From the IMG/VR virus record IMGVR_UViG_3300037047_000246: 64,000 bases of DNA; one strand, written 5' to 3'. Positions 51,393 through 52,415 of this stretch are shown one piece after another; the stretch's first letter is position 1; every line of letters starts with the position of its first letter. Source of the stretch: a virus (taxonomy: Duplodnaviria > Caudoviricetes). The notes under the pieces are model-generated. The model was not told the origin of the DNA. It made no database searches and saw only the letters and a list, made by a program, of their open reading frames with translations. Both the position numbers and the translations under genes were made by a program.

Positions 51393-52415
51393 ATGTCCAA
51401 GGACGACAAGCTGAAGAGTGACGCTAGCCAGGACGCTGGGGCGGGTCTTGACTGCGGCACTATGAACTTCGTGGCAGCGCGGCGCGGCAGCAACAAGGGC
51501 GTAAAGACGTCTAGGCTTCGCAATGCGTTTCTTGATTTGCCGCCAGAGCACAAGCGCATGCTCAAGCTGTCGAAGACGAGCTACATAGAATACGACGGAC
51601 GTCTGCTTGTGATTGGTGACGAAGCCATTTCAACCGCCAATTTGTTCAACAAAGAGGCTCGCAGACCGATGGCAGCCGGCATCATTGCGGCAGGCGAAAT
51701 CGATGCTCAAGGGGTCATGGCTGTCATGGTCAGGCACTTGCTCGGAGACCCGAGACACGGCGAACCATGTTGCTTTTCCGTGCCCGCGCCGGCGCTGGAC
51801 GTGCAGGAGTCCGACACCACGTACCACAAAGCCGTGCTGTCGAAAATACTGACTGAGCTCGGGTACTCGCCTCAGCCAGTGAATGAAGCCCTGGCGGTTG
51901 TGTACTCGGAATGCGTCCAGGAGAACTTCTCAGGACTTGCGCTGTCGTTCGGGTCAGGTATGACCAACGTGTGCCTTGCCTGCAACGCGATGTCTGCCCT
52001 TGAATTCAGCTTGGCACGAGGCGGCGACTGGGTGGATAGAGGAGCGGCGCGTGCAGTAGGTACGACTTCGGCCAAAATCTGCGCAATCAAGGAAGCTGGA
52101 GTGGACCTGGCTGCGACCAAGTCTCGAGAGGAAGAAGCCATCGCGTTGTATGTGCAAGCGCTTATCGACTACGCCATGGACAACATCATCGCTCGCTTCT
52201 CCAGCGCCCGCGGGGAAATTCTCGTTCCGAAGCCGATACCGATCGTCATTAGCGGAGGAACCTCTCTCGCTGGCGGATTCGTCGACAAGTTCAAAGAGAG
52301 GTTTGAGCTGTACCGGAGCAAGTTCCCCGTGCAAGTGTCGGACATCAGACCCGCGAAGGATCCGATGACTGCTGTTGCGTCTGGACTGCTTCTGTACTCG
52401 CAAATGGAAGACTAG
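51393..52415 (+). CDS. Actin-like ATPase, volactin/MamK-like family
   Basis: Phosphate-1 GLDCGTMN, connect-1 VNEALAVVYS, phosphate-2 SFGSGMTNV, adenosine ISGGTS, connect-2 DPMTAVASG. Confidence 0.9.
   Translation: MSKDDKLKSDASQDAGAGLDCGTMNFVAARRGSNKGVKTSRLRNAFLDLPPEHKRMLKLSKTSYIEYDGRLLVIGDEAISTANLFNKEARRPMAAGIIAAGEIDAQGVMAVMVRHLLGDPRHGEPCCFSVPAPALDVQESDTTYHKAVLSKILTELGYSPQPVNEALAVVYSECVQENFSGLALSFGSGMTNVCLACNAMSALEFSLARGGDWVDRGAARAVGTTSAKICAIKEAGVDLAATKSREEEAIALYVQALIDYAMDNIIARFSSARGEILVPKPIPIVISGGTSLAGGFVDKFKERFELYRSKFPVQVSDIRPAKDPMTAVASGLLLYSQMED

What the first reader, a model, noticed from the sequence alone, without database searches (positions are those of the whole stretch)
51393..52415. 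Volactin-like actin embedded in the neck/tail gene cluster
Seen: all actin-fold ATPase motifs. From memory of Haloferax volactin (cell-shape actin), the match extends well beyond the generic motifs: GLDxGTMN, RN(A/S)F, (V/I)GD(E/D)A...AN(L/I)FNKExRRPM, TxYH, GY...P(V/I)NE, NF(S/T)GL..SFG(S/A)GMTNVCLA, FS(L/I)ARGGDW. Known jumbo-phage cytoskeletons are mostly tubulin (PhuZ) or ParM/AlfA-like. A volactin-type filament flanked by Pro/Ala-rich small proteins and co-transcribed with virion genes suggests a distinct role in capsid transport, assembly positioning or host shape control.
Basis: partly seen in the sequence, partly recalled or inferred. Interest (0 to 1): 0.8.

Follow-up and report, generated by a model that had tools for sequence, protein, structure and literature searches.

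The report
Huge-phage volactin actin with adaptor partner
A complete 362-kb groundwater phage encodes, inside its neck/tail gene block, an intact actin-like protein of the archaeal "volactin" family plus a small upstream partner predicted to clip onto it, so these phages probably build their own actin filaments late in infection, which no paper I could search describes.

Summary
ORF 51393-52415 (+, 340 aa) matches Pfam Volactin PF25216 at 241 bits (cut-off 35). It is 37% identical to the Haloferax VolA orthologue over 328 aa. Its AF2 model (pLDDT 94) matches VolA at TM 0.89, against 14-20% identity to salactin, MamK and MreB. It is not a recent archaeal import. It belongs to a large, well-supported viral clade that is intein-rich and absent from GTDB genomes.

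The neck/tail context is real. g403 folds like phage neck proteins, and the 1703-aa ORF's C-terminus hits tail-sheath PHROGs. The order g440-g218-g191-actin-g403-Zn ribbon-sheath holds down to about 41% actin identity.

New here: the upstream 191-aa protein travels with the actin (59/61 actin genes against 0/22 actin-less loci), even where the pair lies outside the neck module. Its C-terminal strand and basic helix are predicted to dock on the actin (ipSAE 0.70, best control 0.00). Partners of bacterial volactins carry similar tails.

Polymerisation, cargo and timing are inferred, not shown. This scan noted phage volactins before on other DNA (34 notes, at least 31 genomes). I found no paper on them.

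The parts
51393..52415 (+). Volactin-family actin-fold ATPase (340 aa); the finding itself
   Evidence: Pfam PF25216 at 241 bits. AF2 model pLDDT 94.4. Foldseek top hit is VolA D4GU28: TM 0.89, 36% identity, E 3.7e-36. BLASTP against the H. gibbonsii VolA orthologue gives 37% identity, E 1e-75. Invariant D20, G22, E165, G187, G189, G288, G289 in a 49-sequence alignment.
50787..51362 (+). g191: candidate volactin adaptor. N-terminal ~55-aa beta domain, Pro/Ala linker, helix, DP[ML]FIP-type motif, C-terminal strand plus basic 'ALKK.RKK' helix.
   Evidence: A family member lies within 1.3 kb upstream, on the same strand, of 59/61 viral volactin genes and in 0/22 actin-less loci. It also accompanies the two cassettes outside the neck module. 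Complex prediction gives ipSAE 0.70 against a best control of 0.00, with the interface on g191 residues 153-189. It overlaps g218's stop by 4 nt.
52439..52861 (+). Small disordered protein: conserved N-terminal motif, (Pro-Ala-Ala)n spacer, acidic stretch, basic KKRRR tail. The ORF listing start is TTG 52424; ATG 52439 fits the orthologues.
   Evidence: Positional orthologues with the same N-motif occur in the closer subclade only. Some orthologues end in a SAP domain (Pfam SAP_new25 at 30 bits, cut-off 26.3). 9-nt tandem array at 52509-52585.
52868..54079 (+). g403: neck / tail-terminator-like virion protein
   Evidence: AF2 model pLDDT 76. Best Foldseek PDB hits are neck chains of phage 812 (E 1.2e-6), Sf14, A-1(L) gp7 terminator, E217, XM1 and Pa193. 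Atlas leads point to SP10 terminator, Gp37 and T4 gp15.
54210..54578 (+). g122: small Zn-ribbon protein, conserved between g403 and the sheath gene
   Evidence: Syntenic in nearly all loci. Positional orthologues carry Pfam Zn_ribbon_8.
56625..61736 (+). Giant tail sheath (1703 aa)
   Evidence: The C-terminal 453 aa hit PHROG 2839 'tail sheath' (E 1.1e-21) and PHROG 279 (E 5.9e-13). Atlas leads point to Phage_sheath_1/1C.
48806..50128 (+). g440: conserved upstream virion-module protein of unknown role. It contains a C-x-x-C-x-G-x-G motif.
   Evidence: Syntenic in most loci, LR745208 included. Weak PHROG hits to 'virion structural protein' (E 4e-4). Atlas neighbours are all viral hypotheticals.
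50134..50790 (+). g218: conserved upstream protein of unknown role, translationally coupled to g191
   Evidence: Syntenic in the closer clade. Not detectable next to distant or dislocated cassettes.
54590..56503 (+). Homing-endonuclease-type insertion (Zn-finger array, PD-(D/E)XK nuclease, Mom/GNAT-like domain). It interrupts the module and is not part of the system.
   Evidence: PHROG 559 HNH endonuclease E 1.8e-75; Pfam DUF4379, MTES_1575 and Mom. Absent at this place in related loci, which carry GIY-YIG or HNH genes at other intergenic sites.

Best explanation
The ORF encodes a phage member of the volactin family of actin-fold ATPases. SHOWN: family membership, an intact nucleotide-binding site, a confident four-subdomain actin fold, membership of a large virus-specific clade, and fixed placement in the neck/tail operon of this phage clade. 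SHOWN: near-obligate linkage to the upstream gene g191. PREDICTED: g191's conserved C-terminal strand and basic amphipathic helix dock on the actin. The site is the groove formed by the inter-domain linker helix (165-179) and the C-terminal helix (327-338), plus the 31-42 beta-hairpin. This is the cleft between subdomains IA and IIA that ParR uses on ParM and that WH2-type helices use on actin. INFERRED: like VolA, the protein polymerises with ATP into dynamic filaments in the infected cell. g191 then acts as a filament-end or monomer-binding adaptor, and its free N-terminal beta domain, held on a Pro-rich tether, engages a cargo. Because the pair is encoded with the neck, terminator and sheath genes, it is made late. 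Its most likely job is spatial organisation of virion assembly (positioning or moving capsids, tails or the assembly site), an actin counterpart of the PhuZ tubulin spindle, in a phage that has no tubulin gene.
For: Family: Pfam PF25216 at 241 bits against a cut-off of 35, with no other actin family hit. BLASTP gives 37% identity, E 1e-75, to the Haloferax gibbonsii VolA orthologue. Foldseek gives VolA at E 3.7e-36, TM 0.89, rmsd 1.9 A; the next hits are salactin at 2e-16 and MamK/MreB near 1e-13, at 14-20% identity. All top PDB hits are filament formers: MreB, MamK, BeeR, crenactin, actin. VolA forms dynamic filaments in vivo (PMC10869688).

Selection: 1061 representative clusters. Invariant catalytic and nucleotide-binding residues. 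16 representatives carry an intein in or beside the phosphate-2 loop.

Viral clade: supports 97/83 and 98/90, separate from the archaeal (100/99) and planctomycete (99/99) clades. No close relative in GTDB genomes.

Context: synteny g440-g218-g191-ACT-g403-Zn ribbon-sheath across the IMG/VR loci, in LR745208, and at 41-44% actin identity. g403 resembles neck proteins. The sheath is confirmed. Genes are same-strand with 4-nt overlaps and 6-30-nt gaps.

Partner: 59/61 against 0/22 co-occurrence. The pair stays together in the two cassettes outside the neck module. Complex prediction supports binding without showing it: score 0.70, best of 3 controls 0.00. That mark was reached by 58 of 80 solved complexes and 2 of 110 mismatched pairs; these counts hold only roughly because my own alignments were used. 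Runs agree in at least 53% of contacts and the partner's pLDDT is at least 58. Upstream partners of bacterial volactins end in a similar strand plus 'L.[KR]LKKLKGG' tail: 31/103 against 32/4528 control ORF ends. hhalign aligns exactly g191 163-191 with that tail, E 2.9e-4, probability 40%. Haloferax volA also has a dedicated upstream partner, a DUF7139 protein.

Other: the genome has no tubulin or MreB. RNA-library contigs 100% identical to part of the actin gene (51958-52350), to g403 and to the sheath occur in a groundwater metatranscriptome.
Against: Nothing here shows polymerisation, ATPase activity, timing of expression or any cargo. The predicted contact residues on the actin are not more conserved than the rest of the protein (entropy 2.5-2.7 against 1.9). 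The tail motif was defined after seeing the sequences, and the profile-profile match is only 40% probability. The complex score may partly reflect learned actin-cleft/peptide complexes such as ParM-ParR. Neck-module placement is clade-specific. Related neck modules lack the actin (21 of 55 loci). One 79%-complete 288-kb relative has no volactin at all, and another carries two copies elsewhere, one a few kb downstream of a ParB-like gene. So the actin is not needed for this type of neck and tail, and gene position is weak evidence of function. An RNA library can contain DNA.
Confidence: 0.55

Rival explanations
1. A ParMRC/AlpAC-like DNA-positioning system. The volactin filaments, coupled through g191 and perhaps the basic or SAP-tailed small protein, move or anchor phage DNA (replication, segregation or delivery to packaging sites), not virion parts.
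For: The known phage actin AlpC works this way with its adaptor AlpA (PMC4446434). Cellular volactins occur fused to a ParB HTH domain (P0178, P0164). One dislocated g191-volactin cassette lies about 3 kb downstream of a ParB-like protein (PHROG 2579, E 2.7e-30). Orthologues of the downstream small protein end in DNA-binding SAP domains, and the window's copy ends in a basic tail. The predicted C-terminal-helix-in-cleft binding mode is that of ParR on ParM (established knowledge).
Against: No Pfam DNA-binding domain is detected in g191. There is no centromere-like intergenic repeat array near the cassette; the only array is a coding 9-nt repeat. In this clade the pair sits in the structural operon, not with replication genes, whereas alpAC is early. 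The SAP-bearing small protein is restricted to a subclade.
Confidence: 0.2
2. A non-filamentous actin-fold ATPase acting as an assembly chaperone or ATP-driven factor for neck/tail completion. g191 would be its client-binding co-factor or a substrate.
For: The actin fold also serves chaperones and non-polymerising ATPases (established knowledge). The gene is wedged between morphogenesis genes. Phosphate-2 is non-canonical, S-F-G-S-G.
Against: The closest relative, VolA, forms filaments in vivo and shares the same phosphate-2 motif. The top structural matches are cytomotive filaments and no Hsp70 or sugar kinase appears among the 50 listed PDB hits. The cassette also exists outside neck modules, and related necks do without it.
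Confidence: 0.1
3. A host-takeover factor. The phage actin remodels host cell shape, division or envelope (for example enlarging the cell or blocking division), echoing VolA's role in cell-shape transitions.
For: VolA influences the rod-to-disk transition. Phages are known to target MreB and cell shape (background in PMC4446434).
Against: Nothing links the protein to host envelope machinery. No membrane-targeting segment is evident in the actin or g191 (sequence). The partner differs from the haloarchaeal DUF7139 protein. Placement among late structural genes fits takeover poorly.
Confidence: 0.08
4. A recently captured cellular gene (a passenger or auxiliary gene) with no dedicated phage function.
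For: The family is abundant in Halobacteria, Methanosarcinales, Planctomycetota and Omnitrophota.
Against: No close relative occurs in 185,579 GTDB species genomes. The viral clade is deep and well supported, with hundreds of members at 41-84% identity. Synteny is conserved and a virus-specific partner gene accompanies it.
Confidence: 0.03

Closest known systems
Volactin (VolA, HVO_2015, UniProt D4GU28) of Haloferax volcanii; Pfam PF25216
   Same: Same Pfam family. 36-37% identity over the whole length and a near-superimposable predicted fold (TM 0.89). It shares the family-specific motifs, including S-[FY]-G-[SA]-G-M-x-N and GGDW. Both have a dedicated gene directly upstream.
   Different: It belongs to a separate virus-specific clade, not the archaeal one. 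The upstream partner is a soluble-looking 191-aa protein with a beta domain and a basic C-terminal tail, not a DUF7139 protein. It is encoded in a phage neck/tail operon. A role in cell shape is not expected, and filament formation is untested.
ParM-ParR-parC (type II plasmid partition)
   Same: An actin-fold ATPase encoded next to a small adaptor. The adaptor's C-terminal helix is predicted to bind the cleft between subdomains IA and IIA, as ParR does on ParM (ParM-ParR from established knowledge).
   Different: No ParM/StbA Pfam match. The adaptor lacks a recognisable RHH or HTH domain. There are no centromere repeats. The gene order is adaptor first. The pair lies in a structural operon.
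AlpC-AlpA of Corynebacterium glutamicum prophage CGP3
   Same: A phage-encoded actin homologue co-transcribed with an upstream adaptor that binds it (PMC4446434).
   Different: AlpAC is an early, DNA-linked system at the prophage end; AlpA binds alpS repeats. Here the actin belongs to a different family, sits among late virion genes of a 362-kb lytic-type phage, and has no repeat array.
PhuZ tubulin spindle of nucleus-forming jumbo phages
   Same: A jumbo-phage-encoded cytomotive filament thought to organise late infection, including capsid delivery (PMC8314001 and PMC7950403).
   Different: PhuZ is a tubulin/FtsZ-fold GTPase. This genome has no tubulin-family gene and uses an actin-fold protein. 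No nucleus-shell gene was examined.
MamK / MreB / BeeR (solved bacterial actin filaments)
   Same: Best solved structural matches (Foldseek E ~1e-14, TM 0.62-0.70), with the same four-subdomain architecture.
   Different: Only 14-20% identity. No Pfam MreB_Mbl match. The phosphate-2 motif and the partner differ.

Membership tests
Volactin family (Pfam PF25216) | Profile score above Pfam's gathering threshold over the full domain | tested here: met
   241.4 bits against a cut-off of 35; profile positions 3-318 of 321. A single copy in the complete genome.
Volactin family (Pfam PF25216) | Closer to VolA than to any other actin-like family in sequence and fold | tested here: met
   VolA at E 3.7e-36, TM 0.89, 36% identity; salactin at 2e-16; MamK and MreB near 1e-13 at 14-20% identity. 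BLASTP 37%, E 1e-75.
Volactin family (Pfam PF25216) | Family signature motifs (phosphate-1 GLD.GT; phosphate-2 S-[FY]-G-[SA]-G-M-x-N; fixed 17-residue spacing to GGDW; RRPM; adenosine GG) | tested here: met
Volactin family (Pfam PF25216) | ATP-dependent dynamic polymerisation, as shown for VolA in vivo | not testable with these tools
   Inferred from homology only.
Haloarchaeal VolA orthologue group | Branches within the archaeal VolA clade and has a DUF7139 upstream neighbour | tested here: not met
   It lies in a separate viral clade (97/83, 98/90), while the archaeal clade is closed at 100/99. The upstream partner is g191, not a DUF7139 protein.
ParMRC / AlpAC-type actin partition systems | ParM/Alp-type actin | tested here: not met
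   No ParM/StbA or other actin Pfam family at E<=0.1. No ParM among the listed Foldseek hits.
ParMRC / AlpAC-type actin partition systems | An adjacent adaptor that binds the actin through a terminal helix | tested here: inconclusive
   The prediction supports binding: 0.70 against a best control of 0.00. That mark was reached by 58/80 solved and 2/110 mismatched pairs (roughly). Run agreement is at least 53% and partner pLDDT at least 58. Co-occurrence is 59/61 against 0/22. This is not a measurement.
ParMRC / AlpAC-type actin partition systems | The adaptor has a DNA-binding domain and there is a cognate centromere repeat array | tested here: not met
   No Pfam domain in g191. No intergenic repeat array within 47.5-54.6 kb.
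PhuZ/TubZ phage tubulins | Tubulin/FtsZ GTPase domain | tested here: not met
   No PF00091 match anywhere in the 362.5-kb genome.
MreB/Mbl | Pfam MreB_Mbl profile match | tested here: not met
   No match in the protein or in the genome. The similarity is structural only.

The most novel reading that the evidence does not exclude
Volactins are, across phages, bacteria and possibly archaea, a two-component cytomotive system. A filament-forming actin is always paired with an upstream adaptor whose C-terminal strand and basic helix plug into the actin's IA/IIA cleft, while a variable N-terminal module selects the cargo (membrane, DNA, virion part). A large clade of huge phages has recruited this system into the neck/tail operon to move or position capsids or tails. 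That would be an actin-based viral cytoskeleton, the counterpart of the PhuZ tubulin spindle.
Probability: 0.3. Interest if true: 0.85.

Novelty: new variant of a known kind. Interest (0 to 1): 0.66.

Why it matters
Phage cell biology currently rests on tubulin (PhuZ/TubZ) and a single studied phage actin, AlpC, which handles DNA early after prophage induction. Here a different actin family is conserved across hundreds of uncultured huge-phage genomes. It has its own partner protein and, in this clade, sits among the neck and tail genes. If it polymerises and carries cargo, huge phages organise late infection with an actin cytoskeleton of their own.

The partner's tail would also give the first handle on how volactin filaments are coupled to cargo. 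That is an open question for Haloferax VolA too: Schiller et al. 2024 ask which factors bind it and whether substrates travel along it.

The pair is small (340 and 191 aa), so it is directly testable in vitro and by heterologous expression without a cultured phage.

Tried and rejected
- A sequence search of the PDB with the actin found nothing below E 0.4. PHROGs has no family for it. The full-length sheath hits neither PHROGs nor the PDB; only its C-terminal part does.
- Pattern-based locus finding failed with the diverse alignments A1 and A3. The single protein found no relative in GTDB genomes. I replaced these with a fixed-spacing degenerate DNA motif and a narrower alignment.
- The predicted g191-contact residues on the actin are not better conserved in the viral clade than other positions, so this gives no extra support.
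- The g191 profile does not match the N-terminal extensions of cellular fused volactins, so there is no Rosetta-stone link. It does not detect a partner next to the LR756511 actin, where a 76-aa ORF stands instead.
- The g218 profile is not found next to distant or dislocated cassettes, so g218 is not shown to belong to the cassette.
- The small protein's N-motif occurs only in the closer subclade, so I could not assign it to the actin or to the neck gene.
- The sigma-70 promoter and terminator scan gave counts near the shuffled expectation, so transcription units were not delimited.
- In the metatranscriptome run, stretches without contigs (the homing-endonuclease genes, parts of the module) cannot be read as silence. 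Contigs show neither strand, ends nor level.
- Two Thermoplasmata MAG contigs, a Legionellales MAG contig and a 204-kb Bacteroidales MAG contig carry viral-half volactins. I read them as probably mis-binned phage DNA, not as host evidence. The host remains undetermined.
- The backbone of the family tree is weak (80/76) and unrooted, so the direction of transfer between cells and viruses is not claimed.

Full report
**What is there.** The window lies in a complete 362,524-bp virus record with direct terminal repeats. ORF 51393-52415 (+, 340 aa) is real, and GGAG lies 5 nt before its ATG. It matches one Pfam family only, Volactin PF25216: E 2.2e-71, 241 bits against a cut-off of 35, over the full profile. 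It has no PHROG family and no sequence-level relative in the PDB. It is the only volactin in the genome, which has no tubulin and no MreB-type gene.

I recovered a Haloferax VolA orthologue by scanning GTDB genomes with a degenerate DNA motif. BLASTP gives 37% identity and 60% positives over 328 aa, E 1e-75, and each recalled motif is visible. An AF2 model built on 49 relatives is confident (pLDDT 94.4, pTM 0.91).
- Against Swiss-Prot models the top hit is H. volcanii volactin: E 3.7e-36, TM 0.89, rmsd 1.9 A, 36% identity.
- Salactin (2e-16), MamK and MreB follow at 14-20% identity.
- Solved structures give MreB, MamK, BeeR, crenactin and actin, all filament formers.
- The nucleotide-site residues are invariant: D20, G22, E165, G187, G189, G288, G289.
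- One correction: phosphate-2 reads S-F-G-S-G, not D-x-G-x-G. That is a family hallmark shared with VolA.

**Where it sits in the family.** An exhaustive search finds 1061 representative clusters, 318 of them at E<=1e-30. The closest hundreds are 61-84% identical and lie on metagenomic contigs of up to about 440 kb. GenBank phages give only two huge phages. GTDB species genomes hold no close relative. Cellular members occur in Halobacteria, Methanosarcinales, Archaeoglobaceae, Planctomycetota, Omnitrophota and others. A careful ML tree of 88 rows places the window with all IMG/VR copies, LR745208 and the intein-bearing representatives, in a clade supported at 97/83 and 98/90. That clade is apart from the archaeal clade (100/99) and the planctomycete/omnitrophote clade (99/99). 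The backbone is weak and unrooted. In the 286-row tree the viral half holds 15 of the 16 intein-bearing forms and almost no GTDB contigs. So the protein is volactin-like at family level, but it is not a recent haloarchaeal import.

**Context.** The order g136-g440-g218-g191-actin-(small protein)-g403-Zn ribbon-giant ORF is kept in the IMG/VR loci and in LR745208. It is also kept at 41-44% actin identity. Homing endonucleases are inserted at varying intergenic sites. The giant ORF's C-terminal 453 aa hit tail-sheath PHROGs (E 1.1e-21 and 5.9e-13). The g403 model matches phage neck and terminator chains best. The neck/tail setting is therefore real.

It is clade-specific, however. I collected loci through g403, independently of the actin.
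- All close relatives carry the actin.
- 21 of 55 loci, all distant ones, do not.
- One distant 297-kb phage has two volactins elsewhere in its genome.
- A 288-kb relative has none.

**The partner.** A profile of g191 finds a family member within 1.3 kb upstream, on the same strand, of 59/61 viral volactin genes. That includes both dislocated copies. It finds none in 22 actin-less loci. The loci are not phylogenetically independent.

g191 has five parts: an N-terminal beta domain, a Pro/Ala linker, a helix, a DP[ML]FIP-type motif, and a C-terminal strand plus basic helix.

Complex prediction supports binding without showing it. The score is 0.70 and the best of 3 controls is 0.00. That mark was reached by 58 of 80 solved complexes and 2 of 110 mismatched pairs, and the counts hold only roughly because my own alignments were used. 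The runs agree in at least 53% of contacts, and the partner's pLDDT is at least 58. The interface joins g191 153-189 to actin 171-179, 198-200 and 323-338, plus the 31-42 hairpin. By the model's topology that is the IA/IIA cleft used by ParR on ParM (established knowledge). The pass could partly reflect such solved complexes.

A lead from earlier scan notes made me look at Haloferax, where a DUF7139 protein lies directly upstream of volA. Upstream partners of bacterial volactins end in a tail like g191's.
- A post-hoc motif occurs in 31/103 partner ends against 32/4528 control ORF ends.
- hhalign aligns exactly g191 163-191 with that tail: E 2.9e-4, probability 40%.
- The contact residues on the actin are not specially conserved.

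**Other neighbours.** The downstream small protein (ATG 52439) has a conserved N-motif, a 9-nt x 8.6 Pro-Ala-Ala array and a basic tail. Some orthologues end in SAP domains. It is confined to the closer subclade.

**Expression.** A groundwater metatranscriptome holds contigs identical to part of the actin gene, g403 and the sheath. That is weak evidence, because DNA can be present in RNA libraries.

**Literature.** Seventeen papers mention volactin, none in phages. PF25216 appears in none. Jumbo-phage reviews list tubulin only. AlpC/AlpA is the studied phage actin, and it is early and DNA-linked.

**Earlier scan notes.** This scan has 34 earlier notes on phage volactins in at least 31 genomes, with similar follow-up readings. 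I treated them as leads.

**Verdict.** The identity and context parts of the interpretation are supported; the function is inferred. Best reading (0.55): a filament-forming phage volactin coupled by g191 to a cargo, made with the neck/tail genes, organising late infection. The main rival (0.2) is DNA positioning. ParB-HTH fusions in cellular members, a ParB-like gene near one dislocated cassette, and the SAP tails keep it alive.

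Noticed in passing
Relatives P0121, P0125, P0128, P0173 and others (not in the window); the insertion point corresponds to window residues 187|188 of the actin (about 51951-51956): 16 of the 150 listed representatives carry a 340-440-aa intein (Intein_splicing plus LAGLIDADG or HNH). It is inserted in or just after the S-F-G|S-G-M phosphate-2 loop. 15 of the 16 lie in the viral half of the tree. The window's copy has no intein.
   Followed up: partly
window 54590-56503 and 61758-63059; related loci L003, L008, L017, L024 and others: Homing-endonuclease genes (HNH/PD-(D/E)XK with a Mom/GNAT-like domain; GIY-YIG) sit at different intergenic positions of the otherwise fixed neck/tail module in different phages.
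   Followed up: partly
window 52509-52585: A near-perfect 9-nt tandem array (CTCCTGCGG x 8.6, 98% matches) encodes (Pro-Ala-Ala)n in the small protein after the actin. The long contigs of one DNA run end exactly at this array, so its copy number in the record may be uncertain.
   Followed up: no
L023:7006-7287, L029:2897-3196, L015:4586-4897, L022:4206-4502: Orthologues of the small disordered protein end in a SAP (DNA-binding) domain, where the window's copy has a basic KKRRR tail.
   Followed up: partly
Proteins P0178, P0164, P0174, P0123 (cellular relatives): Cellular volactins occur fused to an N-terminal ParB HTH domain, or to a C-terminal Wzz/GNVR/ParA-like (BY-kinase-type) module in a Planctomycetota MAG, or as tandem double-actin proteins. 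Planctomycete loci often hold two volactin genes side by side.
   Followed up: no
L032:4091-5401 (Haloferax gibbonsii): A CetZ tubulin gene lies about 0.6 kb downstream of volA, and the DUF7139 gene lies directly upstream. Two archaeal cytoskeletal genes are therefore neighbours.
   Followed up: no
L120, L129 (Thermoplasmata MAGs), L049 (Legionellales MAG), L132 (Bacteroidales MAG, 204-kb contig): Contigs binned into cellular MAGs carry viral-half volactins; L049 also has a g191-like gene. They are probably mis-binned phage DNA, and the 204-kb one may be a jumbo phage.
   Followed up: no
window 56625-61736: The 1703-aa sheath gives no PHROG or Pfam hit when searched whole, yet its last 453 aa hit tail-sheath PHROGs at E 1e-21. 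Long inserted domains seem to mask the match.
   Followed up: partly
window 49650-49700 (g440 residues ~283-299): g440 contains a C-G-C-G ... C-T-V-C-F-G-T-G stretch. The second half fits the DnaJ-type C-x-x-C-x-G-x-G zinc-finger pattern. I saw this in the translation only.
   Followed up: no
L220:27-2348 (297-kb phage G001): A 773-aa protein with a ParB C-terminal domain (PHROG 2579, E 2.7e-30) lies about 3 kb upstream, on the same strand, of one dislocated g191-volactin cassette.
   Followed up: no
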